Positions 41,674 through 61,028 of a stretch of DNA of 64,000 bases are shown here, piece by piece (within the stretch, counting starts at the first letter, position 1; every line of letters starts with the position of its first letter). Source of the stretch: Gemmatimonadaceae bacterium (GTDB lineage Bacteria; Gemmatimonadota; Gemmatimonadetes; Gemmatimonadales; Gemmatimonadaceae). The DNA is taken from NCBI GenBank assembly GCA_051859245.1, contig JBHYGA010000001.1, forward strand, positions 1,501,722 to 1,565,721. The letters are read 5' to 3'. Below the pieces are notes generated by a model that made no database searches, was not told the origin of the DNA, and was given only the letters and a program-made list of their open reading frames with translations. A program made the translations under genes and the position numbers.

Positions 41674-43288
41674 GCGACTCACTCGCCGACAAGGCGACTT
41701 CGTGCGCGAACAATACTTCCAGCGCGAACTTGGACTGCCCGCGCGCGAAGGCGGCCAGGGTGGAATACGTAAATCCGATCGCGCCGAACTGCGCCGAGCC
41801 CGAACCCGTCTCAAACGCGTCGCCATCAACCGGCTCGTAGCGATCCGCACCGAACGAGCGATACAGCCACGTCGCCGACACACCAAATTTGTCGCTCAGA
41901 TTCAGACGCGGCGCCACCTCAAGATCGACGCGCTGTCCCAGTGTGCGTGACACCGCCTGCGGTGTGCTCAGAAAGAAAAACTCTGGTAAACCTGCGCCCG
42001 GCACTCGCACCACCGCATTGTCCGCCAGCGGCGTGGTGCTACGAACGGTGGCTGAGACCCACGCACGATTTCTCCACACCAGATCGGTCGTGGCGCGCAG
42101 CAGCAACGCATTTACACCATCACCGGTGGCCAGTGCGAAGGCTTCGTTCGCTTGCGCGCTGCTGGCCGTACCAAAGCGCCAGCCGGCCGAGCCCAGTACA
42201 CGGATGCCCGAGCGTCGTGTTGAAAGGCGCGCCGCCTGATCGCCTTTCCACGTGTCGTACAGCAACACGCGTGCTTCAACGTCAACGTCGCCCATGCCGG
42301 CGCGGAAGGCGGCGGCCAACGTGTCCGCTTCCACGCCGAATGCCGGGTCCTGCGCGATCCGCTGCAATCCGTTGGTGCCGTACACGAGCACGGCACCGCT
42401 CGGGCCGATCGGCGGCAGCGTGGTCGTGCTCAGGAACCGTGTGAATCCTTCGCGAATGTCATCGAGTGATTCAGCCACTGCATTGTGCACCGCGCCGCCC
42501 TGCACAGGCACGAGCGGCGAACCAACGTCCTGATCATTGCCGTAGACAGCGCCCCACGCCGCACGAAATGATGCGACCCGTGCGGCGAGCGCCTGCGCAG
42601 CGGCGGGATCGGCGCGAATAGCGTCACACTCTGCGCCCGCCGTGGAGGCGGCGCAGCTCGAAATCAGGTCGAGCAGTCGCGTGCGTTCGTTGCCGAGTTG
42701 TACAAAGATGCTGCTGTTGGCCGTGTACACAGACGGGGACAGAATGCCGGGATTCTGACCGACGTTCGCGCCTGTGCCATTCCGGTTCAGCACCAGATTC
42801 GCGTTGTGCGTGACTTCCACATACGGGACGCGCACACCAACGCTGATACGCCGCGTAACGCCGAAGTCGGCCTGCAGCGTGGTCGTAGTGCGACGCACGG
42901 CGCCACTGGCTTCGAGTGCTCCCAGTGACAGATCGAAGGTGGGCAGTCCGGACAGCGCGCGAATGCCGTTCTGCGCGGGGGCCAGCGACGGCAACTGATT
43001 CACACCGAGGGACGAGGTCGCGAGCCCGTCCAGCAGCGGCGACCTCGTGCCGTCCGGGAAGAGGCGGCGATCCCACTGATCCCAGGAAACGCCAACGTTG
43101 ACGCGCAAGCCGCGGGCTGGAATCGGGATCGCGTCTTCACCAAGGCCGGCCACGGGCTGCGCCGAAAGACGGGGAACCGCCGTCAGCGCGATCACACCAG
43201 CCAGCAACACAGCGGGAATCACCGCACGCGATCGGGCAGCGGCGCGAGTTTCAGGGCGACGAGTCAGAAGAAGTCGGGTTGAGCGCAC
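41609..43288 (-). CDS. Hypothetical secreted/outer-membrane beta-barrel-like protein
   Basis: Signal peptide, alternating beta-strand patterns (ISVGVRVPYV, GMGDVDVEARV, FGVSATWLY), and a helical insert with two Cys. Confidence 0.6.
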   Translation of the reverse strand: MRSTRLLLTRRPETRAAARSRAVIPAVLLAGVIALTAVPRLSAQPVAGLGEDAIPIPARGLRVNVGVSWDQWDRRLFPDGTRSPLLDGLATSSLGVNQLPSLAPAQNGIRALSGLPTFDLSLGALEASGAVRRTTTTLQADFGVTRRISVGVRVPYVEVTHNANLVLNRNGTGANVGQNPGILSPSVYTANSSIFVQLGNERTRLLDLISSCAASTAGAECDAIRADPAAAQALAARVASFRAAWGAVYGNDQDVGSPLVPVQGGAVHNAVAESLDDIREGFTRFLSTTTLPPIGPSGAVLVYGTNGLQRIAQDPAFGVEADTLAAAFRAGMGDVDVEARVLLYDTWKGDQAARLSTRRSGIRVLGSAGWRFGTASSAQANEAFALATGDGVNALLLRATTDLVWRNRAWVSATVRSTTPLADNAVVRVPGAGLPEFFFLSTPQAVSRTLGQRVDLEVAPRLNLSDKFGVSATWLYRSFGADRYEPVDGDAFETGSGSAQFGAIGFTYSTLAAFARGQSKFALEVLFAHEVALSASESPIPSLARDRLELRIFRGFPKR

Positions 43289-43385: not shown

Positions 43386-45215
43386 GTGCTGATAGCGTCC
43401 TGCCTCCCCAAGGGTTCCGTGTCCGAGTCTCCTCGCTCCATTCCGTCCGTGCCGTGGCAGACCACGGGCAACCATTGGCTGTCGCTCCCGTGCATTCACC
43501 CGGCCAATGGTGCGATCTACGCCCTTGGCGTGTTGCACCGCGGTGCACGCGCTGCTGTGGAGTTCGCCGGTAGCCGAGGTTTTGTGGAAGGTGAAGGCGA
43601 GCCGCTGCTCAAACCCGTGATACGTGTTGACGGTGAGGTGAGAGAACTGGCCAGCGAGGGCATCGCCTGGGAACGCGCCGTTGGCTGGCTTCCGACCTTC
43701 ACCTGTACGCTTGGCTCGCTGTTGCTGCGCGGCACCGTGTTTGCGCCGTACGGTCGCGATGCCGACATGGCGGGCGCCGTGTACGCGATCACGATCGAGA
43801 ATCGTGGTTCGAATACGCACCGCGTGGAGCTCGCACTCGAAGGGGTGCTCGGTCACCGACAGCAGCGCGTGCGCACACCGCGCGACTTTGACGACGCACA
43901 TCGTGTAGTCCTCGGGCACAACGATACGATCATCCTCGAAGGCGCGGCCGTACCGGGCATGGTGGCGGTTGCGATTGGTGCCGACGGTGAAGCGGTGCGC
44001 GAGATTGGCGACGAGGTGAATGGTCGTATTGCATTTGCGGTGCGTCGCACGCTCACCGTGGAAGCGGGACAGTCCGTGCCGTGCGCGTTTTATCTTGCCG
44101 TCGGTCCGGAGCGTGATGGTGCGTGCGCAACGGTCGGTGTGCTGCGACGCCGTGGCTGGCGCACGTTGCTCGGTGCGACACGCGAAGCCTTGCAGCAGTT
44201 GGAGCAGACCACGGGCCAGGACGCCATTGACCGGCTTGTGAATCGCAACCTGCTGTTCAGCTATTTCTACGGCGTCGGGCGCGGACTCGACGACGCGCAC
44301 TATTACCTCGTGCGCACGCGAGCACCATGGCACAGTCTCGGCGCTACGGTACGTGACTGGGAAGCGCTGATGTGGACGTTGAGCGCTGTCCAACTGGCCG
44401 ATCACGCGCTTGCACGCGAGCTGCTGGTGCGCACCTGTGAACTGCATGGGTACGCGCCGGGGCAGGGTGTGCACTATCTCGATGGCACGCTGTTCGAGCC
44501 TGGGTTTGCGATTGAAGGCGCGGCGGCGTATCCCATTGCAGTTGACCGCTACATTCGGGCGTCCGACGATGATCAAATTGTCGAAGAGCCGGTAGTTGCT
44601 GACACGCTGTATGTCGCGAACGATGATCTGGTTGCACGTCGCGATGAGCGCCTGCCGCTGTACTCCACTGAAGTGAGTCCCAGTGGACAACCCGTGCGGT
44701 TTCCGTTCACGCTGCACGGCAACGCCGTGGTTGCCGCCGCGCTTGATGTGCTGCGGCGCACACTCGATGAAGAGGCCGCGCGCGACGTAGAAGACCCCGC
44801 GGCTGTGCGTGCGGCCATGCAGCGCCACTTCGCGCAGGATCGTGGTGGAAAAGCGCATCTCGCGGCGGCGATCGATCTCGCCGGTGGTGCGGACCAGGTG
44901 GATGATCCGGCTGCGTCCGTGCTGTGGTTGCCGCTGTATGACGCACTTGATCGAGATGACTCGTTGTTCCGCCGGTCGGTGCGCGCGGTTGCGCCGGATG
45001 ATGGCGGGCTCTTGCGTCAGATCGCGCGCTTGCTCGGCCCCGATGGAAACGCGGTGCTCCAATGGCTGCGTCGTGCACCGCTCGATCAGGGGATCGCCGC
45101 GTCGGTGGTGGATAGTGATGGACGCGGCGTGGCCGATGGCGGAGATGCGGCGCTGGCCGGCTTGCTCGCGTCAACGGTGTGGTACGCGTCGCACGCACTC
45201 GGCTTGCACGAATAA
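43386..45215 (+). CDS. Six-hairpin glycosidase-like protein (GH125-like, possibly catalytically degenerate)
   Basis: HYLDGTLFEPGF, DDPAASVLWLP and APLDQGIA segments resemble GH125-related (alpha/alpha)6 proteins; start may be GTG 43419. Confidence 0.55.
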   Translation: MLIASCLPKGSVSESPRSIPSVPWQTTGNHWLSLPCIHPANGAIYALGVLHRGARAAVEFAGSRGFVEGEGEPLLKPVIRVDGEVRELASEGIAWERAVGWLPTFTCTLGSLLLRGTVFAPYGRDADMAGAVYAITIENRGSNTHRVELALEGVLGHRQQRVRTPRDFDDAHRVVLGHNDTIILEGAAVPGMVAVAIGADGEAVREIGDEVNGRIAFAVRRTLTVEAGQSVPCAFYLAVGPERDGACATVGVLRRRGWRTLLGATREALQQLEQTTGQDAIDRLVNRNLLFSYFYGVGRGLDDAHYYLVRTRAPWHSLGATVRDWEALMWTLSAVQLADHALARELLVRTCELHGYAPGQGVHYLDGTLFEPGFAIEGAAAYPIAVDRYIRASDDDQIVEEPVVADTLYVANDDLVARRDERLPLYSTEVSPSGQPVRFPFTLHGNAVVAAALDVLRRTLDEEAARDVEDPAAVRAAMQRHFAQDRGGKAHLAAAIDLAGGADQVDDPAASVLWLPLYDALDRDDSLFRRSVRAVAPDDGGLLRQIARLLGPDGNAVLQWLRRAPLDQGIAASVVDSDGRGVADGGDAALAGLLASTVWYASHALGLHE

Positions 45216-45285
45216 TCACAATCACCTGACAGAAGCGCGGTCGGCGCTTGTAACCGAGCGCTGGCCGGGTTTAAGTTGGGAGCAC

Positions 45286-45358
45286 GCGGGAATAGCTCAG
45301 TTGGTAGAGCACAACCTTGCCAAGGTTGGGGTCGCGGGTTCGAGTCCCGTTTCCCGCT
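45286..45358 (+). tRNA. tRNA-Gly(GCC)
   Basis: Acceptor stem GCGGGAA/TTCCCGC; anticodon stem CAACC-TT GCC AA-GGTTG; GGTTCGAG T-loop; CCA not encoded. Confidence 0.97.
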
Positions 45359-45381
45359 CTGTATGTTGTTTGTAGTTTCGG

Positions 45382-45418
45382 GAAGGGGAGCGGTGCATCA
45401 CCGCTCCTTTCGCGTTTT
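45382..45418 (+). terminator. Strong hairpin between the tRNA genes (terminator or processing signal)
   Basis: GGAGCGGTG-CAT-CACCGCTCC stem extended by G-U pairs, followed by CGCGTTTT. Confidence 0.5.
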
Positions 45419-45423
45419 CGGTG

Positions 45424-45507
45424 GCCCGGATGGCGAAACCGGTAGACGCGGGGGCCTTAAAAGCCCCTGTCCGCAAGGACATGCGGGTTCGAGTCCCGCT
45501 TCGGGCA
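45424..45507 (+). tRNA. tRNA-Leu(TAA)
   Basis: Acceptor stem GCCCGGA/TTCGGGC; anticodon stem GGGGC-CT TAA AA-GCCCC; long variable arm GTCC-GCAA-GGAC; CCA not encoded. Confidence 0.96.
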
Positions 45508-45531
45508 CTCATCACCACGTAGGAGACCGGC

Positions 45532-45753
45532 TTGCGTACCGTTCGTGACTCTCAGGGCATCAACTGGATTTGTCTCGAGCTGCCGGAGGTCCCCGCCGAT
45601 TTTGTGGCGGCCGCGACCACGATTCAACCCCCGCCCGTTGCCGTCGAATGCAACTCCGGCGCCGATCGAGCCATTGTGTTGCTGGCAGAGGATTGGGCGG
45701 ACGCGTTATCCGATGACGGACTTGTTGAACATATCGCACGCGCATTGCGCTGA
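45532..45753 (+). CDS. Small hypothetical protein (73 aa)
   Basis: TTG start preceded by AGGAGA; protein-like composition; fills the tRNA-pcs gap. Confidence 0.6.
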   Translation: MRTVRDSQGINWICLELPEVPADFVAAATTIQPPPVAVECNSGADRAIVLLAEDWADALSDDGLVEHIARALR

Positions 45754-45844
45754 TCCAGCGTTGTTACGGCATTGATCTTGCGCTGCTCCTCACTGAGCCA
45801 CAACGTGGCTCAGGTGCGCGTTCACGTCATGGCAAGGGGATGGG

Positions 45845-48800
45845 GTGGCTGCTTCTGGGGAGACGATTGGGCTCGCGGCGGTAACTCCGCCTGAGCCTCT
45901 GCGCAACGCGTTGCGCACACGGGAAGACTGGGAGGCCGCACGTGCGGCGTGCGAGGCCGATCCCGGTCGCTATCATGGCGACATTGCAGCACACACGCTG
46001 CATTGGTTCGACGCCTCCCTGGGCGAACATGGTGCGTGGATCACACACGATGAACACACCGGCGTGTGGTCTGGCTGGGACGCTCACACCTTGCAGCCTG
46101 TCGCTCCGTCGCGAGACGCGGCGTGGCGACCGTGGACGCGCGCGTTGAACGACGATGACGCGCCGTGGTACCGCTGGTTCGAAGGCGCGCTCACGAACGC
46201 GGGCTTCAACGAGGTTGATCGCCACGTACTCGCCGGCCATGGTGAAGAGCCTGCCTTTCTCGTCGAAGGCGATCGCTGGGATCAGTCACGCGACAACGGA
46301 CGCGGCGCACCTGTGGTGTCGTATCCCATCTCGCGCAAGGGACTGCTCGTCGATGTCGCGAAAGCAGCGCTCGCGTTGCGCGCACTTGGTTTGAAGACGG
46401 GCGATCGCATCGCGCTCAACCTGCCCAACATTCCGCAGCAGATTGCGTGGACTGAAGCAGCAAAGCGACTCGGCATTCTGTATACGCCCGTCTTCGGTGG
46501 CTTCTCGGACAAAACGCTCGCCGACCGCATTCATGACGCGGGCGCGCGCGTTGTGATTACCGCCGATGGCGGATGGCGCAACGCGCAGATCATTCCATTC
46601 AAGGCGGCCTACACCGATCCCGCGCTCGATCAGTACATCGCGGCGGATCGTGCCGTGCACGTCGTGCGTGACGCGCTCGGCGCGCTCTCACTTGACGCCG
46701 CGCAGGTTGAACTGATTGCGCGCAGTGCGGCCGAGGCCGTGGCTGGCGAAATTACCGTGGAACGGCGTGATGCAATGCGCGGTGTGGGTCGCGCGTTGCT
46801 CTCGCTCACGGAGTCTGGCGCGCTCAACGCGTCTGATGCGAGCCGAGTGCGCACGGCGGTCGCGCGGGCACTGGTCGACGCCGGTTCGGCGGTTGAGCGC
46901 GTCGTGGTGGTGAAGTACACCGCGCAAGCCGATGTGCCGTGGCGTGCGGGGCGTGATGTGTGGGAAGACGAACTGCTCGCGCCCGCCAGCGCCGCGTTGC
47001 TTGAGGCGGCGCGCGCGCTCGGACATCGCGTGTCCACCGAAGCGGAACTGCGTGAACTGTCCGACACCGATCTGGTTCGTGTGGTGTGGTCGGTGGTGCC
47101 TCCGGTTCCGGTGGACAGCGAGTTCCCGCTGTTCTTCATCTACACGTCAGGCTCTACTGGCAAGCCCAAGGGTGTCGTGCACGTGCACGGTGGATGGACC
47201 GCCGGTATTGCACACACCATGCGCATCGCGTTTGATGCACAGCCCGGCGATGTGATGTATGTGGTGGCAGATCCGGGATGGATTACCGGACAGAGCTACA
47301 TGATTTCGGCCGCACTGACCACGCGCACCACGAGCGTGCTCGCGGAAGGCGCGCCGGTGTTTCCGTCGGCCGGCCGGTTTGCATCGATCATTGAACGGTA
47401 CAACGTGCGCATCTTCAAGGCGGGTGTCACGTTCCTCAAGAGCGTGATGCAGGATCCGCAAAACGCCGAAGATGTGCAGCGCTATGATGTCTCGTCATTG
47501 CGTGTCGCCACGTTCTGCGCCGAACCCACATCGCCAACGGTGCAAGAGTTTGGCATGTCGCTGCTCACGCCCTGGTACATCAACTCGTACTGGGCCACGG
47601 AACATGGCGGCATTGTGTGGACGCACTTTTTTGGCAACGGCGATTTTCCGCTGCGTGCCGACGCACACACGTATCCGCTGCCGTGGGTGATGGGTGATGT
47701 GTGGCTGGCCGACGGCGTGCCAGATGCAGATGGTCGCTTCGCGCCGCGTGTGGCTGATGAAGGCGAGAAGGGCGAAGTCGTGATCACGGCGCCGTACCCG
47801 TATCTCGCGCGCACCATCTGGGGCGACGTTGGGTCGTTCACGGTGGACGGCCACTCGGTATCTTCCAGTTGGCGCGGTGACATTGATCGGTATCGCGCCA
47901 CATACTGGAGCCGGTGGCAGGGCCGCTGGGCGTACACACAAGGTGATTTCGCGGTGCGCTATCCCGACGGCGGGTTCTCACTGCACGGACGAAGTGATGA
48001 CGTGATTAATGTGTCCGGTCATCGCATGGGCACAGAGGAGATTGAAGGCGCCATTCTGCGCGACAAACAACTCAACGCCGATTCGCCAATCGGCAATGTG
48101 ATTGTTGTTGGCGCGCCGCATCGCGAGAAAGGCCTTACACCGCTCGCGTTCGTCACGATCGCCCCGGGGCGTCGACTCACGGCGGATGATCGTCGCCGCC
48201 TCATCGAACTTGTGCGTCAGGAAAAGGGCGCTGTAGCGGTGCCCGAAGATTTCCTTGAAGTGTCCGCGTTCCCGGAAACGCGCAGCGGCAAGTATGTGCG
48301 CCGACTGCTTCGCGCGCTCGTGGAGGATCAGCCACAGGGTGACCTGAGCACGCTGCGCAATCCGGAGTGTGTGCCCGCGCTGCAACGCGTGATTGGTGAA
48401 TGGAAAGCGCGTCAGCGTGTTCGCGAGTCGCAGCGCATTCTTGAACACGGTCGCTACTTCCGTGTGCAGTACCACACGGTGGCGCAGGTACATGGCGAGT
48501 CCGTTCGTATGGCGCTTGTGACGGTCACGAATGCACCTGTGAACGCGCTGAACGAACGCGCGCTGGATGAGCTGGTCACTGTGGTTGAACATTTGTCGCG
48601 TCGCAAAGACGTGGCCGCCGTTGTTTTCACCGGCGAAGGCACATCGTCTTTTGTGGCTGGCGCTGACATTCGTCAGCTGCTCGAAGATGTGCACACCGTT
48701 GAGGAAGCGGTCACGCTGCCAAACGTGGCCCATCTCGCGTTCCGCACGATTGAGCGCATGAACAAGCCGTGCATTGCCGCGATCAATGGTGTGGCGCTCG

Positions 48801-51331
48801 GTGGCGGTATGGAGTTCGCCCTCGCGTGTCATGTTCGGATCGCGGAACAGAAAGCACTGTTCGGACAGCCGGAGATTCGTTTGAATCTGCTGCCTGGTTA
48901 CGGCGGCACGCAGCGACTCACACGGTTACTCGCTGATCGTGATGGAATGGAAGGCGTTGTCCAGGCAGTGGAGATGCTCGTGGGCGGGCGCACCATCACC
49001 GCGCGCGAGGCCGCAGACATTGGTGTCGTCGACGAAGTGGTTACCGATGCGCAGGATGTCGTGGCGCATGCATCGGCCCTCGTGCGTGACTACATCGCCG
49101 ACCGCGAACAGAGCAAACTTGGCAAGGCATTTCGCCACGTACGCGAACGACGCGAAGCGTGGGAGAAGCCTGGCGCGCTTGATGTGCGCCAGGCGTTCGC
49201 GTTGCCACCTGTGGTGCGGTTGCTGGAGCAAGCCGAACGTGTCGGTCGCGCTGCGCATGTTGCGCGCGTGCTTGATGCCGTCGAAACGGGATGGCGTGAA
49301 GGGCTGGTCTCCGGCCTCGCACATGAAGCGAAGCTGTTTGCATCCGCGGTGGTCGATCCTGAAGCAGGCAAGGCAGGCATTCGCGCGTTCTTCGATCGCG
49401 CCAGTGCGCCGCTCCCCGTGCGACGCGGTGCGATTGTTGATGCGGCCCAGGAAGCCGAACTCGCCGCCCGAGGGGACTTGTTACCGGTTGGTGCCCCGTT
49501 CTTCCCGGGGCTCACCGCCATTCCCACCTGGCAGTACGGTCTTGGTGTCATCAAAGACCCGCACACTGGCGCACCGCGACATGGTGAGCCGGCCCAGGTT
49601 GAACAGCAGGTGGTTGTGCCGGTAGAAACACCGGGTCCGAATGACGTGCTGCTCTACGTCCTCGCGTCTGAAGTGAACTTCAACGACATCTGGGCGATTA
49701 CGGGCATTCCCGTGTCGCCGTTTGATTCCCACGATCGTGATGTACAAGTCACCGGTTCCGGCGGCGTTGGACTGGTGGCATCAATCGGCGACGCGGTGAA
49801 AGCCGAAGGACGCGTGCGTGTTGGCGATCTTGTCACGATCTACTCGGGGCAGAGCAGTTTGCTGTCACCGCTCGCCGGTCGTGATCCAATGTCGGCTGAC
49901 TTCCGCATTCAGGGCTACGAAACGTTTGAAGGCAGTCACCAACAGTTTCTGTTGGTGCAGGCGCCGCAGTGTCATCCGCTGCCGCCCGATGTCACGTTGG
50001 AAGCAGCCGGTTCGTACATCTTGAATCTCGGCACCATCATTCGTGCGCTGTTTACCACGCTGCAAATCACTGGCGGCCGCACGATGTTCGTCGAAGGTGC
50101 GGCCACGGGCACCGGGCTTGAAGCGCTCAAGACCGCCGTCGCGCATGGTCTGAAGGTCACCGGACTCGTCTCGAGCGAAGACCGTGCACACACCGTGAAG
50201 TCCTTCGGTGCAACGGGCGCGATCAACCGCCGAAGCGCAGGCATTTCGGACTGCTTCACGATGGTACCCGGCGACGCCGCGTCGATCGCCAGGTGGGAAG
50301 CCGCCGGACAACCGTTGCTCGAAGCGTTCCGCGCGCAACACGATGGAAAGCTCGCAGACTACGTTGTCTCGCACGCCGGTGAACAGTCGTTTCCGCGCAG
50401 CGTGCAACTGCTGGCCGACGGCGGCTCCCTTGCCTTCTACGGAGCGTCTACCGGCTACCATTTCACCTTTGCGGGCAAGCCAGGCGCAGTGAGTGTGAAC
50501 ACGATGTACGAACGCGCTGGCCTTGTGGCCGGTGAAGCCGTGCTCGTGTACTACGGACCTGGGCTCGCCGCTGACGCATTGGTCGACGCCATCGGCATTG
50601 AAGCCATTGAGGCTGCGGCCGCACGACGCGCACGCATTGCGGTAGTGTGTTACACCGACGCGCAACGCGAGTTTGTGCGTTCGCTTGGCTTTGGCGATCA
50701 ACTCGCTGGCGTCGTCGCGCTTGATGAACTGCGCCGCCGCGCGAGTATGGAGTTCGATTGGCCGAGTACGATGCCGCCGCTGCCAGATGTTCGACGCGAC
50801 TCCATCGCATTCAAGGAAGCAGTGCGCGCATTTCAGGAGCGCACGATCAAGCCGCTTGGCCAGGCCGTGGGCAAACTGCTGCGTTCCTCCGACAATCCGC
50901 GTGGTGCGCCCGACCTGATCTTCGAACGTGCGGCACACGATGCCCTCGCCGCGTCCACCGCATTGGTGCAACCGTTCAGTGGCCGCATTGTGTACGCAGA
51001 AGACATGCACCACAAGCGATACAGTTTTTACGCCCCACAAGTCTGGATGCGTCAGCGACGCATTCTGCTCCCCACGTGCAGCATTCTCGGCACTCATCTC
51101 TGCAACGCCTACGAGGTTGTCCGCATGAATCAGATGCTCGCCGCAGGTCAACTCGACGTTACGGCACCGACGGTAGTGCCGTGGAATGACTTGCCGGAAG
51201 CGCATCAGGCCATGTGGGAGAATCGCCACACGGGTGCGACATACGTGGTGAATCACGCGTTGCCCGCGACCGGACTACGATCGCGCGATGAACTGTACGA
51301 GGCGTGGGCCTCAGGGAGCGCCAACGTATGA
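45845..51331 (+). CDS. pcs: Trifunctional propionyl-CoA synthase (3-hydroxypropionyl-CoA synthetase / dehydratase / acrylyl-CoA reductase)
   Basis: 1828 aa: ACS domain (YTSGSTGKPKG, YWATEHG, GRSDDVINVSGHR, PETRSGK), crotonase domain (FVAGADI, GGGMEF, QPEI, PGYGGTQRL) and Ccr-like MDR reductase (SEVNFNDIW, GAATGTG, VWMRQRRI, GTH). Confidence 0.93.
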   Translation: MAASGETIGLAAVTPPEPLRNALRTREDWEAARAACEADPGRYHGDIAAHTLHWFDASLGEHGAWITHDEHTGVWSGWDAHTLQPVAPSRDAAWRPWTRALNDDDAPWYRWFEGALTNAGFNEVDRHVLAGHGEEPAFLVEGDRWDQSRDNGRGAPVVSYPISRKGLLVDVAKAALALRALGLKTGDRIALNLPNIPQQIAWTEAAKRLGILYTPVFGGFSDKTLADRIHDAGARVVITADGGWRNAQIIPFKAAYTDPALDQYIAADRAVHVVRDALGALSLDAAQVELIARSAAEAVAGEITVERRDAMRGVGRALLSLTESGALNASDASRVRTAVARALVDAGSAVERVVVVKYTAQADVPWRAGRDVWEDELLAPASAALLEAARALGHRVSTEAELRELSDTDLVRVVWSVVPPVPVDSEFPLFFIYTSGSTGKPKGVVHVHGGWTAGIAHTMRIAFDAQPGDVMYVVADPGWITGQSYMISAALTTRTTSVLAEGAPVFPSAGRFASIIERYNVRIFKAGVTFLKSVMQDPQNAEDVQRYDVSSLRVATFCAEPTSPTVQEFGMSLLTPWYINSYWATEHGGIVWTHFFGNGDFPLRADAHTYPLPWVMGDVWLADGVPDADGRFAPRVADEGEKGEVVITAPYPYLARTIWGDVGSFTVDGHSVSSSWRGDIDRYRATYWSRWQGRWAYTQGDFAVRYPDGGFSLHGRSDDVINVSGHRMGTEEIEGAILRDKQLNADSPIGNVIVVGAPHREKGLTPLAFVTIAPGRRLTADDRRRLIELVRQEKGAVAVPEDFLEVSAFPETRSGKYVRRLLRALVEDQPQGDLSTLRNPECVPALQRVIGEWKARQRVRESQRILEHGRYFRVQYHTVAQVHGESVRMALVTVTNAPVNALNERALDELVTVVEHLSRRKDVAAVVFTGEGTSSFVAGADIRQLLEDVHTVEEAVTLPNVAHLAFRTIERMNKPCIAAINGVALGGGMEFALACHVRIAEQKALFGQPEIRLNLLPGYGGTQRLTRLLADRDGMEGVVQAVEMLVGGRTITAREAADIGVVDEVVTDAQDVVAHASALVRDYIADREQSKLGKAFRHVRERREAWEKPGALDVRQAFALPPVVRLLEQAERVGRAAHVARVLDAVETGWREGLVSGLAHEAKLFASAVVDPEAGKAGIRAFFDRASAPLPVRRGAIVDAAQEAELAARGDLLPVGAPFFPGLTAIPTWQYGLGVIKDPHTGAPRHGEPAQVEQQVVVPVETPGPNDVLLYVLASEVNFNDIWAITGIPVSPFDSHDRDVQVTGSGGVGLVASIGDAVKAEGRVRVGDLVTIYSGQSSLLSPLAGRDPMSADFRIQGYETFEGSHQQFLLVQAPQCHPLPPDVTLEAAGSYILNLGTIIRALFTTLQITGGRTMFVEGAATGTGLEALKTAVAHGLKVTGLVSSEDRAHTVKSFGATGAINRRSAGISDCFTMVPGDAASIARWEAAGQPLLEAFRAQHDGKLADYVVSHAGEQSFPRSVQLLADGGSLAFYGASTGYHFTFAGKPGAVSVNTMYERAGLVAGEAVLVYYGPGLAADALVDAIGIEAIEAAAARRARIAVVCYTDAQREFVRSLGFGDQLAGVVALDELRRRASMEFDWPSTMPPLPDVRRDSIAFKEAVRAFQERTIKPLGQAVGKLLRSSDNPRGAPDLIFERAAHDALAASTALVQPFSGRIVYAEDMHHKRYSFYAPQVWMRQRRILLPTCSILGTHLCNAYEVVRMNQMLAAGQLDVTAPTVVPWNDLPEAHQAMWENRHTGATYVVNHALPATGLRSRDELYEAWASGSANV

Positions 51332-54300
51332 GCGACACCACAGCAACGGCCGCTGACCGACGCCGAGCGCCACGCGGTCGACTGGCGGGAAGAGTCGTGC
51401 TGCTCACCGGTGCCGCCGGCAACATCGGAACGCAGATTTCACGGCAGCTACTGCGAGAAGGCGCAACGCTTGTCATGAGCGGCCGGGATCAGGCACGCCT
51501 CGACGCCGCGAAGGCCGCGCTGCGTGAAGAGTTGCACGTACCGGCCACGCGAATACTCACGGTGGTAATGGACGGCGCCGAGCCTGGACAGGTGCGTGTC
51601 GGCGTTGAGCAGGTGATGGCCAAAGCGGGACGCATCGATGTACTCGTGAACAACGCGGGTTCGGCTGGACCAAAGTGTCGACTGCGCGATGTACCGTTCA
51701 CCGCCGGTGAGCTTGAAGCGCTGGCCGAAGTTGGTGTGCACGAGAAGGAAACGGTGAGCGCGGCGGCGCGCAATTTGTTTGGCATTGCGTGGAATCTCGT
51801 GCGTGCCTGCGTGCCGCACATGAAGCCTGGCAGCACCATCATCAACGTCTCCACCATCTTCTCTCGCACGCAGTACTACGGACGCTCGGCGTACGTTGTG
51901 CCCAAGGCGGCCCTGAACAGCTTCTCCAAGCAGCTCGCGGCCGAGGTTGGACCACTCGGCATTCGCGTGAATACCGTCTTCCCTGGGCCGATTCGCTCGG
52001 AGCGAATTCGCACGGTGTTCTCAGCCATGGACAAGTTGCGTCATGCGGAGGACGGCACCACCGCGCGAGAAAACTTCGATCTCATGACACTCGCGCGCTC
52101 GGTGAATGGCGAACCACCGGAGCGAACGTTCCCGAGCGTTGAAGACGTTGCGAACACGATCGTGTTCCTGTCGTCTGACGAATCCGCGGCGTACAACGGG
52201 CACAATTTCGAAGTCACGCACGGCATGCGCGTGCGTCAGGAGTCTCGCAGTACATGGGTCTCACGTCCTGAACTGCGGACTGTCGATGGGTCCGGCGTGC
52301 GCGTCTTGCTGGCCGCTGGTGATCAGGTCAAGGACGCGCTCACCGTGGCACGCGTGCAGGCCGGTTGTGGTGCCGAAGTCGTACTCGGACTCGGCTCCGA
52401 GGAAGGCGTGCAGGCGGCGCAGGAAGCGCTCGGCGCCAATCCGGGAGACGAACGCATTCGCCCGGTACTGCTGGATCGCATGCGCCCTGAAACGGTGGAC
52501 AGCCTCTTCGAAACGCTGCGCCATGAAGACGCGCTCGTGCACGGGGCGATCATCATGCCGGCGTTTGGCGCGTGGCGCTTTCGCGGTCGGTTCACGGATG
52601 CATCAGACAGCGACGTCTCCACGTTCATTGACGGTGAAATCGCGGGCACCATGTTGCTGGCACGTGCACTGACGGTGTTCTGGAAGGATGTGGAGCACGA
52701 GCTCAGCATGCCGCCGAGCATTGCGTTCGTCACGAACGGTGACGATGGAGCGGGGAACAACTACGCCGACGTACTGCGCGCGGCGACGGAAGAGTTGTGT
52801 CGCGTCTGGCGTGATGAAACCGAGGTACAACAGGCATCAGGCGAGCGTCGTTTCGAAGAGTGGTCGAACCAGATCATTCGCTGGGGGAATCGCGAGCCAG
52901 AAGAGGTGCCATTCGCGGCGGGACAGGCCGCGCGGTTGCTGTACACGCGGCGTCGAATTCGTCAGGTGAATCTCTATCTGCCGCTGTCGATCGTACGCGC
53001 CACCGGATCACGTCGCTCGTCGTTCGGGTGGATGGAGAACGTGATGGGGCTGCACCTCGGCAAGGTTGCGCTCATCACGGGCGGTAGTGCGGGTATTGGT
53101 GGTCAGTTGGCGCGGCTGCTCGCCATTGGTGGCGCGCGCGTCATGCTCGTGGCGCGACGCGCTGATCAGCTCAAGGAAATGCGCGACGGCATTGTGACCG
53201 AACTGGAAGATATCGGCTACTACGACGCGCCCGATCGCGTGCAATGCGTGGCCGATGTTGATGTCGCCGATGAGGCGAGTCTGCGCCGCGCGGTTGACGA
53301 AACACTCGCCGCGTTCGGGCGCGTGGATTATCTGGTCAACAACGCCGGCGTGGCTGGCGCGGAACAGATGGTTGTGGACATGGACGTCGAAACGTGGCGA
53401 AACACGCTGAACGCGAATCTCGTGTCGAACTATTCGTTGATCGAGAAGATTGTCCCGATCATGAAGCGGCAGGGCAGTGGATACATTCTCAACGTATCTT
53501 CGTATTTTGGTGGCGAGAAGTACATCGCGGTTCCGTATCCCAATCGGGCGGACTACGCCGTCTCCAAGGCGGGTCAGCGCGCGCTTACCGAGAATCTTGC
53601 CCGGTTTGTCGGGCCGGAGATTCAGGTGAATGCGATTGCGCCGGGTCCGGTTGATGGTGATCGACTGCGCGGAGTTGGTGGCAAACCCGGTCTCTTCGAG
53701 CGTCGTGGCAAGCTCATTCTTGAGAATCGTCGACTGAACGCAGTGTACAAGGCGGTCATCGATGCGCTGCGCGGCGGCGCGCTCGTCACCAACGTGCTCG
53801 CGCTTGTGCAAGGCAACGATGTAGACGCCATCGCCACCGACGAAAGCGCGCCAGCCGCACTTCGCAAACTCGCCGAGAGTATTCGCGCGGAATCACTTGC
53901 GGCCGACACTGAAGCCAGCTCCGGCCGTTTTCTCATGACGCGGAGCATCGCACAGCGTCTCGTCGCGCGGTTGCGCCTCGGCGGGCGCTTTCTCGCATTG
54001 CCGGCGGATGCACCGCAGTATGGCGACGAGTGGATCCTCGCGATTCCCGACGCGGTGGAGCCGTTTATCGATCGCGATCAGATCAAGCGCGAAGCGAGCA
54101 AAATCGGCAAGGGAGTGCTGAGCATGCTGCACTTGCGCAACATGCCGGGCGAGCTCGAGGTCGCACTTGCCACGGTGTACTTTCTCGCGGACCGCGCTGT
54201 TTCCGGAGAGACGTTCCAGCCGTCGGGAGGTTTGCATCAGGAGCGCACCATCACCGAGCGAGAACTGTTTGGCCGTGCCAAGCCCGAGCGCATTGCGCGG

Positions 54301-55026
54301 ATGGCGCAGCAAACGATCTGGCTGGTGGGCGACTACCTGTATCCGCATCTCGCGCGCGCGGCTCGCCTGGCGCTGGAGTACAGCCATGTCGGCCGCATCA
54401 TGCTGCTCACACGCACACCCGAGGCGGCGGCGCAAACCCAGGACTTGCTCCGTATTGTGCTCGGCAATGAACGGGTGCACAGCATTGTGGTGGGTGATGA
54501 TCTCGACGCGGGCATGGACGAGGCACTGCGTGTGGGCGGACAGCCGGCCGCTGTTGTATCAACGCCGTTCGAGCCACTCCCGCGAGAACTCTTCAATGCC
54601 GATGGGTCTGCGGCGCTCGATGCGGCGGGCTTTGCGTCGCTTGTTGAGGAGCACCTGACCCATCACTTCCGCGTGGCGCGCAAAGTGTCGTTGTTTGACG
54701 ACGTGCGTTTGGTACTCGTGTCGCCAGACGTACCGGTGCATCCAACGCACGCCGAGTTCGCCCTGGCAAACTTTGTGAAAACCACCTTGCACGCGCTCAC
54801 CGCCACTCTCGGCGTGGAGAACGAGCGTCTGGTGCACAACGTGCCGGTCAACCAGATCAACCTCACGCGTCGTGTGCGCTCGGAAGAGCCGCGTGACGCC
54901 CGTGAGCAGGCAGAAGAACAGGAGCGCTTTGCCCACGCCGTGTTGCTTGCCAGCGCCCCGTTGCCAGACCAGGAAGACAGCCGATATCGGTCGCGAATCT
55001 ATCGCGGTCTCGCGATCACGGTGTGA
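51328..55026 (+). CDS. mcr: Bifunctional malonyl-CoA reductase (3-hydroxypropionate-forming)
   Basis: About 1232 aa with two SDR domains (TGAAGNIG...NNAGSAGP...YYGRSAYVVPK; TGGSAGIG...NNAG...SSYFGGEK...YPNRADYAVSK) and C-terminus RIYRGLAITV, as in Chloroflexus-type Mcr; ATGA overlap with pcs. Confidence 0.93.
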   Translation: MSDTTATAADRRRAPRGRLAGRVVLLTGAAGNIGTQISRQLLREGATLVMSGRDQARLDAAKAALREELHVPATRILTVVMDGAEPGQVRVGVEQVMAKAGRIDVLVNNAGSAGPKCRLRDVPFTAGELEALAEVGVHEKETVSAAARNLFGIAWNLVRACVPHMKPGSTIINVSTIFSRTQYYGRSAYVVPKAALNSFSKQLAAEVGPLGIRVNTVFPGPIRSERIRTVFSAMDKLRHAEDGTTARENFDLMTLARSVNGEPPERTFPSVEDVANTIVFLSSDESAAYNGHNFEVTHGMRVRQESRSTWVSRPELRTVDGSGVRVLLAAGDQVKDALTVARVQAGCGAEVVLGLGSEEGVQAAQEALGANPGDERIRPVLLDRMRPETVDSLFETLRHEDALVHGAIIMPAFGAWRFRGRFTDASDSDVSTFIDGEIAGTMLLARALTVFWKDVEHELSMPPSIAFVTNGDDGAGNNYADVLRAATEELCRVWRDETEVQQASGERRFEEWSNQIIRWGNREPEEVPFAAGQAARLLYTRRRIRQVNLYLPLSIVRATGSRRSSFGWMENVMGLHLGKVALITGGSAGIGGQLARLLAIGGARVMLVARRADQLKEMRDGIVTELEDIGYYDAPDRVQCVADVDVADEASLRRAVDETLAAFGRVDYLVNNAGVAGAEQMVVDMDVETWRNTLNANLVSNYSLIEKIVPIMKRQGSGYILNVSSYFGGEKYIAVPYPNRADYAVSKAGQRALTENLARFVGPEIQVNAIAPGPVDGDRLRGVGGKPGLFERRGKLILENRRLNAVYKAVIDALRGGALVTNVLALVQGNDVDAIATDESAPAALRKLAESIRAESLAADTEASSGRFLMTRSIAQRLVARLRLGGRFLALPADAPQYGDEWILAIPDAVEPFIDRDQIKREASKIGKGVLSMLHLRNMPGELEVALATVYFLADRAVSGETFQPSGGLHQERTITERELFGRAKPERIARMAQQTIWLVGDYLYPHLARAARLALEYSHVGRIMLLTRTPEAAAQTQDLLRIVLGNERVHSIVVGDDLDAGMDEALRVGGQPAAVVSTPFEPLPRELFNADGSAALDAAGFASLVEEHLTHHFRVARKVSLFDDVRLVLVSPDVPVHPTHAEFALANFVKTTLHALTATLGVENERLVHNVPVNQINLTRRVRSEEPRDAREQAEEQERFAHAVLLASAPLPDQEDSRYRSRIYRGLAITV

Positions 55027-55088: not shown

Positions 55089-56084
55089 ATGACAGACGTC
55101 GTTGCACTCGCCACTGAATTGCTTTCCATCGACTCGTCCACCGGCCGCGAACGCGAGGCGGTGGACGTGGTTGGCCGCTGGCTCGTTGCCCGGGGGTGGA
55201 ACGTCACCCTGCAGGAAGTCGAGCCCGGTCGCAGTAATGTCTGGGCCACCCGTGCGGGGGGCGGAGTCACGCTCTCCACGCACCTGGATACCGTTCCGCC
55301 CTATATCGCGCCGCGGCTCGATGACGGCCGGCTGTACGGTCGCGGCGCCTGCGACGCCAAGGGCATTGCCGCGGCTATGCTTGTGGCCGCGCAGCAGCTC
55401 GCGGACTCCGGCGAAGAGCGTGTTGACCTGCTCTTTGTGGTCGGCGAAGAAAAGGGGTCTCCGGGTGCTCGCGCGGCCAACCGGTTGCCCGCCACCAGCA
55501 AGTGGCTGGTGAACGGCGAGCCCACCGAAAGCAAGCTGGCATCCGGCGCGAAAGGCGCGCAGCGCGTGATTGTGCGTGTGCGCGGACGCGAAGCGCATTC
55601 GGCGTACCCTGAGTTTGGCAGCAGTGCCCTCGATCCGTTGCTCGCGCTGTTGCCGCAAGTGCGCGATCTGCCGCTGCCGAGTGATCCGGTGCTCGGCATG
55701 ACCACGAGCAACATTGGTGTACTGCGCGCCGGTACCGAAGCGAACGTTATTCCTGGCCTCGCCGAGGCGGAAATCATGATTCGGCTCGTTGGCGACATCG
55801 CGCCGGTCAAGCAGGTCTTTGAAGACTGGGCCAAGGGCCGCGCCGAGTTGGAATGGGGCTCGTTCATTCCGGCGCAGCGCTTTCATACGATCGAAGGATT
55901 TGACGTGGCACCGGTCGCATTCACCACCGATATCCCCCTGCTGAATCGTTGGGGCACGCCATTGTTGTTTGGACCCGGCTCCATTCACGTGGCGCACACG
56001 CCAGACGAACACATTGCCGTGTCTGAGTTGCGCGACGCGGTATCGGCCTACGTGCGCATTGTGGAGGCACTGCTCGCAACATGA
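55089..56084 (+). CDS. M20 family metallo-hydrolase (ArgE/DapE-like)
   Basis: THLDTV, GRGACDAKG, GEE, NGEPT, AHT.DE; first gene of the asd-dap cluster. Confidence 0.9.
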   Translation: MTDVVALATELLSIDSSTGREREAVDVVGRWLVARGWNVTLQEVEPGRSNVWATRAGGGVTLSTHLDTVPPYIAPRLDDGRLYGRGACDAKGIAAAMLVAAQQLADSGEERVDLLFVVGEEKGSPGARAANRLPATSKWLVNGEPTESKLASGAKGAQRVIVRVRGREAHSAYPEFGSSALDPLLALLPQVRDLPLPSDPVLGMTTSNIGVLRAGTEANVIPGLAEAEIMIRLVGDIAPVKQVFEDWAKGRAELEWGSFIPAQRFHTIEGFDVAPVAFTTDIPLLNRWGTPLLFGPGSIHVAHTPDEHIAVSELRDAVSAYVRIVEALLAT

Positions 56085-60168: not shown

Positions 60169-61026
60169 ATGGCCCTCTCTCTTGCCGAACTTGAAGCGCG
60201 TCTGTCGCATCCGGACCTGCTTGACTCTAACGTCACGTTGCCAATGGACGCGGCCGCCACGTTCGAGACGTTTCTCGTGCGATTGGAAGCCGGCGAACTG
60301 CGCGCGGCGCGCAAAGATGCGGACGGCCGCTGGCATGCCGTGCCATGGGTAAAGCGTGGCATCCTGCTCGGTTTCCGCATCGGTCGCGTTGTTGAAATGG
60401 GTGCGGCGACTGGCGGCATCAATCACTTTCTTGATAAGCACACGTTTCCGCCGCGTGAATACCGCCTCGAGCATTCGGTGCGCATTGTGCCCGGCGGATC
60501 GGCCGTGCGGCGCGGCGCGTATCTCGCGCCAGGTGTGGTGTGCATGCCGCCCATGTACGTGAACGTTGGCGCGTACGTTGGTGCCGGTACGATGGTGGAT
60601 TCGCACGCGCTCGTGGGTTCGTGCGCGCAGATTGGCGAGCGCGTGCACTTGAGTGCGGCCGCACAAATTGGTGGCGTGCTTGAGCCGGTGAATGCGGCGC
60701 CGGTGATCATTGAAGACGACGTGATTGTTGGCGGCAACTGCGGCGTGTACGAAGGCACGGTGGTGCGCGAGCGCGCTGTGCTCGGCGCCGGCGTGATTCT
60801 CACGCGTGGCACACCGGTGTATGATCTGGTGCAGGAGCGCATGCTGCGCGGCACCGATGATTCGCCTCTCGAGATTCCCGCCGGTGCCGTGGTCGTCCCC
60901 GGTGCGCGACAGGTCACGTCGGAGTGGGGGCGCGCGCAGGGTCTCTCCATTCAGACACCTGTGATTGTGAAGTACCGCGACAGCCGCACCGATTCGGCCA
61001 CCGCGCTCGAAGCCTGGCTGCGGTAG
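60169..61026 (+). CDS. dapD: Tetrahydrodipicolinate N-succinyltransferase
   Basis: [37 protein letters not shown]. Confidence 0.95.
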
Positions 61027-61028
61027 TC

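What the first reader, a model, noticed from the sequence alone, without database searches (positions are those of the whole stretch)
45845..55026. Coupled pcs-mcr operon: both signature enzymes of the 3-hydroxypropionate bi-cycle in an apparently Gemmatimonadota-like genome
Seen: two very large ORFs joined by an ATGA overlap (51328-51331), one an ACS-crotonase-reductase fusion of 1828 aa and one a double-SDR of about 1232 aa, with intact catalytic motifs. Established: Mcr (malonyl-CoA to 3-hydroxypropionate) and Pcs (3-hydroxypropionate to propionyl-CoA) are the key enzymes of the Chloroflexus aurantiacus 3-HP bi-cycle, and partial sets occur in some aerobic anoxygenic phototrophs such as Erythrobacter. 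Inference: with host acetyl- and propionyl-CoA carboxylases, the pair gives an NADPH-consuming, bicarbonate-fixing route from acetyl-CoA towards succinyl-CoA. That could be a full autotrophic or mixotrophic bi-cycle, or a half-cycle for acetate/3-HP assimilation and redox disposal. mcl, mch, mct, meh and smtAB are not in this window, so autotrophy cannot be claimed. I cannot verify novelty; metagenomic reports in this phylum may exist.
Basis: partly seen in the sequence, partly recalled or inferred. Interest (0 to 1): 0.92.

Follow-up and report, generated by a model that had tools for sequence, protein, structure and literature searches.

The report
Complete 3-hydroxypropionate bi-cycle in phototrophic gemmatimonad
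Two giant adjacent genes are genuine copies of the key enzymes of the Chloroflexus carbon-dioxide-fixation pathway, and this light-harvesting bacterium carries the rest of the pathway too but no recognisable inorganic electron source, so it most likely adds CO2 while feeding on organic carbon; the pathway was already reported in this phylum but not tested in the papers found.

Summary
Observation confirmed. 45845-51331 is full-length propionyl-CoA synthase (PDB 6EQO, 2419 bits). 51328-55026 is full-length malonyl-CoA reductase (8HI4, 1187 bits) with all mapped catalytic residues. The overlap is conserved in 21 of 23 Gemmatimonadaceae loci.

The 99.9% complete genome also holds smtAB-mct-mcl-mch plus meh in Chloroflexus order, both carboxylases, epimerase, mutase and aerobic bacteriochlorophyll photosynthesis. 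It lacks isocitrate lyase, Ccr, true RuBisCO, NiFe hydrogenase, SoxZ and CO dehydrogenase.

Of 201 Gemmatimonadaceae genomes, 11 (three genera) carry the whole specific gene set, and all 11 have pufLM.

Best reading (0.65): light-powered, organic-electron-fed CO2 co-assimilation and the only recognisable acetyl-CoA assimilation route, not autotrophy.

Not new to the phylum: Garritano 2022 and a 2026 preprint report it. This scan noted it before, including the second cluster of this genome (e1-7738684). Added here: the link to phototrophy, the missing donors, and Mcr and SmtA in the cultured Gemmatimonas groenlandica, which makes a test practical.

The parts
45286..45359 (+). tRNA-Gly(GCC); left flank of the conserved slot, also present in relatives without pcs-mcr
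45424..45508 (+). tRNA-Leu(TAA); in same-genus G127 (no pcs, mcr or pufLM found) it ends 14 bases before the dapE-like gene, i.e. the empty slot
45532..45753 (+). 73-codon ORF (TTG start), conserved in 15 carrier loci and in one non-carrier (L058); a flanking gene, not shown to belong to the pathway
45845..51331 (+). pcs, trifunctional propionyl-CoA synthase, 1828 aa: 3-hydroxypropionyl-CoA ligase (about aa 23-860), crotonase-type dehydratase (about 870-1190), NADPH acrylyl-CoA reductase (about 1240-1828). K762, E1010, D1281 and H1751 match 6EQO K783, E1027, D1302 and H1769 (roles recalled); M1735 stands where 6EQO has T1753
51328..51331 (+). ATGA overlap of the pcs stop and the mcr start; a start/stop overlap is kept in 21 of 23 related loci
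51328..55026 (+). mcr, bifunctional malonyl-CoA reductase, 1232 aa: N-terminal alcohol dehydrogenase (T176-Y189-K193) and C-terminal CoA-acylating aldehyde dehydrogenase (S725-Y743-K747, Y737-R740, R1167)
55089..56084 (+). DapE/ArgE-like deacylase, first gene of a lysine-biosynthesis run (asd, lysC, dapB, dapA, dapD); right flank of the slot, not part of the pathway

Best explanation
The pair is the reductive arm of a complete Chloroflexus-type 3-hydroxypropionate bi-cycle, used by an aerobic bacteriochlorophyll photoheterotroph for co-assimilation rather than autotrophy. Acetyl-CoA carboxylase makes malonyl-CoA from bicarbonate. Mcr reduces it with 2 NADPH to 3-hydroxypropionate. Pcs activates, dehydrates and reduces that (1 NADPH) to propionyl-CoA. 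Propionyl-CoA is then either carboxylated to succinyl-CoA (PCC, epimerase, mutase, then SDH, fumarase, SmtAB and Mcl, giving glyoxylate plus acetyl-CoA) or condensed with glyoxylate to pyruvate plus acetyl-CoA (Mcl, Mch, Mct, Meh). Light supplies the ATP (type II reaction centre, alternative complex III-like operon); organic substrates supply the electrons, moved to NADPH by the PntAB transhydrogenase. The route lets the cell build biomass from acetyl-CoA, 3-hydroxypropionate, propionate or glycolate without a glyoxylate shunt and refix CO2. Shown here: the genes, intact frames, conserved residues, the absences and the co-occurrence. Inferred: expression, flux, the source of electrons and the role of light.
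For: Full-length Pcs and Mcr. Second cluster on C4 in the order meh | smtA-smtB-mct-mcl-mch, matching C. aurantiacus Caur_0180, 0179, 0178 to 0173 (PMC3150298); Mcl 664 bits, Mct 650, Mch 533 to solved enzymes; relatives of SmtA are named succinyl-CoA:(S)-malate CoA-transferase A. AccA, B, C, D, the epimerase, mutase domains with MeaB, SdhAB and AcsA are above NCBIfam cut-offs; a PccB-type carboxyltransferase lies next to a second biotin carboxylase and carrier. pufL, M, C, bchF, N, H, L, X, Y, Z and acsF are above cut-offs. Not found in a 99.87% complete genome: isocitrate lyase, Ccr, true RuBisCO, NiFe hydrogenase, SoxZ (41), CoxL (90), Sqr-like or extra molybdopterin oxidoreductases. Of 201 family genomes, 11 have pcs+mcr+mct+meh+smtAB; 11 of 11 have pufLM and 0 of 11 have isocitrate lyase. 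In L023 all eight specific genes form one cluster. G. groenlandica, which has Mcr and SmtA, did not grow autotrophically on sulfide or thiosulfate with bicarbonate (PMC7844134).
Against: No activity, expression or isotope data. The 11 complete carriers fall in only three genera, so the link to photosynthesis may be shared ancestry; 13 of 28 pufLM genomes lack mcr, so phototrophy does not need it. An aerobe can send spare electrons to oxygen, so the benefit must be carbon yield, which is inferred. Mct scores 682.7 against a TIGR04253 cut-off of 725. The Meh candidate has no family hit, and its best solved match is an itaconyl-CoA hydratase at 201 bits. Fumarase is assigned at domain level only. 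The glcDEF-like operon scores below cut-offs and occurs in non-carriers as well.
Confidence: 0.65

Rival explanations
1. Two separate heterotrophic tools with no tie to light. pcs-mcr serves only acetate or 3-hydroxypropionate assimilation to succinyl-CoA, and the C4 cluster only glycolate or propionate co-assimilation. They rarely run as one bi-cycle, and the match with photosynthesis genes is shared ancestry.
For: The two modules lie on different contigs. Their closest relatives differ: Mcr is nearer Burkholderiales (64-65%) than Chloroflexi, while Mct, Mcl and Mch are nearer Chloroflexi than Burkholderiales (Mct 71-72% versus 55%). pcs-mcr occurs with none of the second-cluster genes beside it in the Steroidobacteraceae and Acidibacter loci. 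4 of 19 mcr genomes show no pufLM. Four genomes with mct lack smtAB.
Against: All 15 mct genomes also carry pcs and mcr. L023 joins all eight genes in one cluster. The four mcr-positive, puf-negative genomes are fragmented (240-950 contigs, 85-94% complete). Same-genus G127 lacks pcs-mcr and pufLM together.
Confidence: 0.2
2. True photolithoautotrophy: the bi-cycle supports growth on CO2 alone, with an inorganic donor oxidised by a system my searches did not recognise.
For: The gene set is complete, with a photosynthetic apparatus, an alternative complex III-like operon, complex I and a transhydrogenase that could drive reverse electron flow. 5 of 11 complete carriers have a NiFe hydrogenase (two inspected). 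Garritano et al. proposed inorganic donors for their two MAGs (PMC9802188).
Against: No hydrogenase, SoxZ, CoxL, Sqr-like flavoprotein, extra molybdopterin enzyme or decaheme cytochrome in this genome. SoxZ is in 0 of 11 and CoxL above cut-off in 0 of 11 complete carriers. G. groenlandica failed autotrophic growth tests with sulfide and thiosulfate; H2 was not among the donors named in the passages read.
Confidence: 0.08
3. A relic on its way out: the genes are inherited but little used.
For: The lineage does lose the pathway: the empty slot in G127, internal stops in mcr of G158 and L035 and in meh of G130, and mct not found in G093.
Against: All eight specific frames in this genome are intact, catalytic residues and the overlap are conserved, and there is no other acetyl-CoA assimilation route.
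Confidence: 0.07

Closest known systems
3-hydroxypropionate bi-cycle of Chloroflexus aurantiacus and Roseiflexus castenholzii (PMC3150298; PMC10470521)
   Same: All 13 enzyme functions have candidate genes; meh, smtA, smtB, mct, mcl, mch stand in the same order; Mcr catalytic residues are conserved; the host has a type II reaction centre and no true RuBisCO.
   Different: pcs and mcr overlap here but are far apart in C. aurantiacus (Caur_0613, Caur_2614). This host lacks isocitrate lyase and CO dehydrogenase, which C. aurantiacus has, and shows no hydrogenase. It has acsF and looks like an aerobic photoheterotroph of another phylum.
3-HP bi-cycle gene sets in two Gemmatimonadales MAGs (Garritano et al. 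2022, PMC9802188) and mcr+mcl in freshwater Gemmatimonadota (bioRxiv 10.64898/2026.09.02.748891)
   Same: Same phylum and family, same gene set, same order of the glyoxylate cluster.
   Different: Garritano's text links it to inorganic donors (its supplement shows a BchP hit and pigment pathways for one MAG); the preprint found no enrichment for photoautotrophy. Here all 11 complete carriers have pufLM, and this genome has no recognisable inorganic donor system.
Propionyl-CoA synthase of Erythrobacter sp. NAP1 (PDB 6EQO, organism recalled) and Mcr of Porphyrobacter dokdonensis (6K8S-6K8W): the partial set of proteobacterial aerobic phototrophs
   Same: Best solved match for Pcs (2419 bits); strong match for both Mcr halves (809 and 571 bits); aerobic phototroph host.
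   Different: Those hosts are recalled to hold only part of the cycle, while this genome has the second cycle too. The Pcs reductase has Met where 6EQO has Thr1753.
Burkholderiales 3-HP clusters (family Ga0077523 and Burkholderiaceae in PMC9802188; loci L004, L005, L031)
   Same: Nearest Mcr outside the phylum (64-65%); smtA, smtB, mcl, mch and mct are clustered.
   Different: There mct-mcr-accC stands divergent from smtAB-mcl-mch with no pcs beside mcr; their Mct is only 55% identical.

Membership tests
Propionyl-CoA synthase (Pcs) | One chain of about 1800 aa with ligase, crotonase and reductase domains, alignable end to end with a characterised Pcs | tested here: met
   6EQO residues 23-1825, 2419.5 bits; Pfam order
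Propionyl-CoA synthase (Pcs) | Active-site residues equal to 6EQO K783, E1027, H1769 (roles recalled; paper not read) | tested here: met
   K762, E1010, H1751
Bifunctional malonyl-CoA reductase (Mcr) | About 1220 aa; YxxRxxY motif and catalytic triad in SDR1 and SDR3; CoA-binding arginines | tested here: met
   PMC10470521 passages mapped
Pcs and Mcr | Measured NADPH-dependent activity | not testable with these tools
   needs an assay
3-HP bi-cycle | Chloroflexus-type Mcl and Mch | tested here: met
   Mcl 664/662 bits to 6KIN/4L7Z versus 208 to 4L9Y; Mch 533 bits to 4E3E
3-HP bi-cycle | Mesaconyl-CoA C1-C4 transferase (Mct) | tested here: met
   650 bits over residues 5-409 to 8APQ; note that TIGR04253 scores 682.7, below its 725 cut-off, with the next family at 108 bits
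3-HP bi-cycle | Succinyl-CoA:malate CoA-transferase SmtAB | tested here: met
   Two tandem CaiB proteins before mct; relatives at 79-99% named subunit A by JGI; no solved orthologue for SmtB, so by annotation and gene order
3-HP bi-cycle | Mesaconyl-C4-CoA hydratase (Meh) | tested here: inconclusive
   Candidate beside smtA as in C. aurantiacus; found in 16 of 20 pcs genomes; best solved match is itaconyl-CoA hydratase; no family hit
3-HP bi-cycle | Acetyl-CoA and propionyl-CoA carboxylases, epimerase, mutase, SDH, fumarase | tested here: met
   PccB is assigned by Carboxyl_trans score and neighbours, class I fumarase at domain level
Autotrophic use of the 3-HP bi-cycle | A system to oxidise an inorganic electron donor | tested here: not met
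   No NiFe hydrogenase, SoxZ, CoxL, Sqr-like or extra molybdopterin enzyme; donors with no model searched (for example Cyc2-type iron or phosphite oxidation) remain untested
Autotrophic use of the 3-HP bi-cycle | Growth on CO2 as sole carbon source | not testable with these tools
   Negative for G. groenlandica with sulfide and thiosulfate (PMC7844134)
Aerobic anoxygenic phototroph (host) | pufLMC, bch genes, aerobic cyclase acsF, no form I/II RuBisCO | tested here: met

The most novel reading that the evidence does not exclude
A clade of 'obligately photoheterotrophic' Gemmatimonadaceae runs the whole oxygen-tolerant 3-HP bi-cycle in the light, giving substantial net CO2 fixation on reduced substrates; in the 5 of 11 complete carriers with a NiFe hydrogenase, possibly including cultured relatives, it supports aerobic H2-driven photoautotrophy. 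This would be the first working 3-HP bi-cycle shown outside Chloroflexota. A side possibility is that the natural Met at the Pcs position equal to Thr1753 adds some reductive carboxylation.
Probability: 0.2. Interest if true: 0.85.

Novelty: new member of a known kind. Interest (0 to 1): 0.48.

Why it matters
Aerobic anoxygenic phototrophs are treated as unable to fix CO2, and PMC11316326 states that autotrophy has no physiological confirmation in Gemmatimonadota. Two surveys flagged 3-HP bi-cycle genes in the phylum; the 2026 preprint says validation is still needed. This near-complete genome shows the whole set with photosynthesis and without a recognisable inorganic donor, which points to light-driven CO2 co-assimilation. 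A cultured strain that grows in liquid (G. groenlandica TET16) has at least Mcr and SmtA, so a 13C-bicarbonate experiment can be done now. A positive result would put the bi-cycle to work outside Chloroflexota and change carbon budgets for freshwater and soil photoheterotrophs. The enzymes are also likely mesophilic versions of tools used for 3-hydroxypropionate production and synthetic CO2 fixation.

Tried and rejected
Unrelated SDR or ligase fusions: rejected. Half-cycle only: rejected at gene level. Contamination or recent transfer: rejected, because the pair lies inside a 1.83 Mb contig among housekeeping genes, its GC3 (0.68, 0.72) matches the genome (0.70 +/- 0.04), the slot is conserved and Mcr sits in a 23-row Gemmatimonadaceae clade. 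Calvin cycle: only a RuBisCO-like protein below all NCBIfam cut-offs. Ethylmalonyl-CoA pathway: no Ccr. A gene first taken for fumC is aspA. Fisher tests on co-occurrence were run but are not used, since kin are not independent. Expression: no RNA holder listed, so no reads were laid. The promoter scan found 0 sites in 45200-45900. The Mcr tree is the quick version and has no Chloroflexota rows; 5 of the 31 loci offered were dropped by my length and motif filter, so it names no donor. Cluster members of P0041 could not be listed. G. groenlandica Mct was not among the 120 listed of 1871 hits, and its pcs, mcl, mch and meh were not checked. Zarzycki and Fuchs 2011 and the 2019 Pcs engineering paper are not held; a search for T1753M or D1302S found 0 papers, so that point is recalled. 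No structure prediction was run, because solved homologues cover both proteins.
Full report
OBSERVATION. The two ORFs are as described: 45845-51331 (1828 aa) and 51328-55026 (1232 aa), joined by ATGA at 51328-51331. Pcs aligns with PDB 6EQO over residues 23-1825 at 2419.5 bits; single-domain relatives reach at most 273. Mcr aligns end to end with 8HI4 and 8HJW at 1187 and 1181 bits and with both halves of the Porphyrobacter enzyme at 809 and 571 bits; unrelated SDRs reach 93. The organisms of most PDB entries are recalled, since the tool gives molecule names only. From passages of PMC10470521 I mapped the Roseiflexus Mcr residues T165, Y172, R175, Y178, K182, S731, Y743, R746, Y749, K753, R785, L795, R799 and R1164; all are kept. 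In Pcs, K762, E1010, D1281 and H1751 match 6EQO K783, E1027, D1302 and H1769 (roles recalled). A homologue search gave 1118 proteins at E <= 1e-200 among 8000 scored, many named malonyl-CoA reductase by JGI.

HOST AND SLOT. The window is part of a 1.83 Mb contig of a 4.70 Mb genome in 11 contigs, 99.87% complete and 2.2% contaminated. Of 35 loci found with Mcr, 24 are Gemmatimonadota, the nearest at 97%. In a quick tree of 30 rows the window's Mcr lies in a 23-row Gemmatimonadaceae clade (support 98) that includes G. groenlandica; the tree has no Chloroflexota and names no donor. The pair sits between tRNA-Gly/tRNA-Leu and a lysine-biosynthesis run. The dapE-like gene follows mcr directly in 20 of the 24 Gemmatimonadota loci; one locus ends inside mcr, one has a 2 kb gap and two lie elsewhere. 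The start/stop overlap is kept in 21 of 23 loci holding the junction. In 5 of 5 non-carriers examined the flanks are the same; in same-genus G127 tRNA-Leu ends 14 bases before dapE, and three others hold 1.3-3.1 kb of other DNA there. GC3 matches the genome. I infer an old acquisition, vertical inheritance and repeated loss.

THE REST OF THE PATHWAY. Contig C4, 848-855 kb, holds smtA, smtB, mct, mcl and mch on one strand, a meh candidate divergent from smtA, and a fabH-like gene behind mch. C. aurantiacus has meh Caur_0180, smtA 0179, smtB 0178, mcl 0174 and mch 0173 (PMC3150298, passages). Mcl scores 664 and 662 bits to 6KIN and 4L7Z against 208 to 4L9Y. Mct scores 650 to 8APQ but 682.7 against the TIGR04253 cut-off of 725. 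Mch scores 533 to 4E3E. SmtA relatives at 79-99% are named succinyl-CoA:(S)-malate CoA-transferase A. Meh is the weakest assignment: 201 bits to an itaconyl-CoA hydratase and no family hit. AccA, B, C, D, the epimerase, mutase N- and C-terminal domains with MeaB, SdhAB, malate dehydrogenase, AcsA and PEP carboxylase are above NCBIfam cut-offs. A PccB-type subunit lies beside a second biotin carboxylase and carrier protein, and a class I fumarase passes at domain level. A glcDEF-like operon is present but below cut-offs. All eight specific frames are intact. In Gemmatimonas sp. locus L023, pcs, mcr, meh, smtA, smtB, mct, mcl and mch form one cluster.

ENERGY. pufL, M, C, bchF, N, H, L, X, Y, Z and acsF pass their cut-offs, and bchB passes TIGR01278. 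PntAB, a complex I subunit and an alternative complex III-like operon are present. Not found: NiFe hydrogenase, SoxZ (41), CoxL (90), an Sqr-like flavoprotein or further molybdopterin oxidoreductases, any cytochrome with more than five haem motifs, isocitrate lyase, a malate synthase motif (recalled motif only) and Ccr. The one RuBisCO match is a RuBisCO-like protein below all NCBIfam cut-offs. Donor systems with no model searched remain open.

DISTRIBUTION. One sample of 201 Gemmatimonadaceae genomes, at least 85% complete, was searched four times: mcr 19, pcs 20, mct 15, pufLM 28. pufLM is in 15 of 19 mcr genomes and 14 of 15 mct genomes; mcr is in 15 of 28 pufLM genomes and 4 of 173 others, all four fragmented. 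All 15 mct genomes have pcs and mcr. meh and smtAB were sought only in the 20 pcs genomes: 16 and 12 of 20. Eleven genomes have pcs, mcr, mct, meh and smtAB, with mcl and the start of mch beside mct, and all 11 have pufLM. They belong to three genera (4, 6 and 1), so this is far from 11 independent events. Among these 11: isocitrate lyase 0, SoxZ 0, CoxL above cut-off 0, NiFe hydrogenase 5 (on 34 handles; on 20), and a strong RuBisCO match in 1 (G124, 404 bits; on 20). Isocitrate lyase is also missing in 9 of 13 phototrophs without mcr, so its absence is not peculiar to carriers. The two hydrogenases inspected have 534-aa large subunits that I recall as resembling the aerobic uptake group 2a; no call assigns the group.

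MECHANISM. From established biochemistry of the bi-cycle (PMC3150298 and recall), Mcr and Pcs turn malonyl-CoA into propionyl-CoA with 3 NADPH, which is then carboxylated to succinyl-CoA or joined with glyoxylate to give pyruvate. With no inorganic donor, electrons must come from organic substrates while light supplies ATP. An electron balance (biomass reduction degree 4.2 assumed) puts the ceiling of carbon yield at 0.95 for acetate or glucose, which means refixation only, and at 1.07, 1.11 and 1.37 for 3-hydroxybutyrate, propionate and palmitate, which means net fixation. With neither shunt nor Ccr, this is the only recognisable way to build biomass from acetyl-CoA. I put this reading at 0.65, two unlinked heterotrophic tools at 0.20, true autotrophy in this genome at 0.08 and a relic at 0.07. 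The modules look to be of mixed ancestry: Mcr is nearer Burkholderiales (64-65%) than the solved Chloroflexi enzymes, while Mct is 71-72% identical to named Chloroflexi proteins and 55% to Burkholderiales; this rests on identities, not on rooted trees.

WHAT IS KNOWN. PMC9802188 (passages, section 7, supplement rows) reports all bi-cycle genes 'for the first time' in two Gemmatimonadales MAGs and suggests inorganic donors; its supplement shows a BchP hit and pigment pathways for one of them (file cut when stored). bioRxiv 10.64898/2026.09.02.748891 (passages; supplements not seen, and they may list the MAGs) finds mcr+mcl in freshwater Gemmatimonadota, no enrichment for photoautotrophy there, and asks for validation. 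PMC11316326 (passages) found no complete autotrophic pathway in its marine MAGs. PMC10581226 (passages, six supplements; one PDF unread) and PMC9426454 have no match to 'malonyl'. G. groenlandica has a named Mcr homologue at 71% (P0041) and a named SmtA at 82% (P0299). Its description (PMC7844134, passages) reports no autotrophic growth with sulfide or thiosulfate; acetate and H2 are not in the substrate lists I read. Searches listed no title on a working 3-HP pathway in this species or phylum; most of those hits I saw only as listings, and most subscription journals are not held. PMC10176493 and PMC7918591 (passages) confirm that Erythrobacter Pcs was engineered into a carboxylase but give no residues. 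Earlier notes of this scan found pcs-mcr in other gemmatimonads and the C4 cluster of this same genome.

VERDICT. Real, intact, correctly named, and part of a complete gene set. It is a new member of a known kind: the presence in the phylum is published, the function is untested. The added value is the tight link to phototrophy, the lack of inorganic donors in a near-complete genome, and a cultured relative to test. Interest 0.48.

Noticed in passing
window 51047-51049 (Pcs residue 1735): Met stands where 6EQO has Thr1753, as in the carboxylating Ccr 4GI2; I recall T1753M as one of two changes engineered to raise Pcs carboxylation (paper not held). Asp1302 is kept. Met is in 12 of 23 Gemmatimonadaceae loci and 6 of 6 gammaproteobacterial loci, so it is a common natural variant.
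   Followed up: partly
L023:4391-20423: pcs, mcr, meh, smtA, smtB, mct, mcl and mch form one 16 kb cluster in a Gemmatimonas MAG; its Mcr groups with proteobacterial rows on a long branch.
   Followed up: partly
G124:C1:608975-609868 and L077:4025-6646: One single-contig genome has the full 3-HP set, pufLM, a NiFe hydrogenase and a strong RuBisCO match (404 bits): possibly two CO2-fixation routes in one phototroph.
   Followed up: no
L045, L051, L055, L056 (G085, G036, G130, G098): A shorter module, meh | mct(-mcl-mch), with smtAB not found; G036 and G085 have high-scoring NiFe hydrogenases.
   Followed up: partly
window 45532-45753: A 73-codon ORF between tRNA-Leu and pcs, conserved at 48-99% in 16 loci, function unknown.
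   Followed up: partly
window 43386-45215 and 41609-43288: Two conserved genes (609 and 559 aa) with no NCBIfam or Pfam hit; the 609-aa gene is 60-97% identical across the family and sits before the tRNAs.
   Followed up: no
L037:8922-10061: A fabH-like ketoacyl synthase III directly behind mch on the same strand; link to the pathway unknown.
   Followed up: no
L004, L005, L031: Burkholderiales cluster mch-mcl-smtB-smtA | mct-mcr-accC without pcs beside it.
   Followed up: no
G000:C5 447-472 kb and 530-535 kb (L039, L040, L082): The photosynthesis genes are split, with unrelated genes between the acsF/puh region and pufLMC, and bchXYZ about 60 kb away.
   Followed up: no
window 60924-63050: Fused aroA-cytidylate kinase gene.
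   Followed up: no
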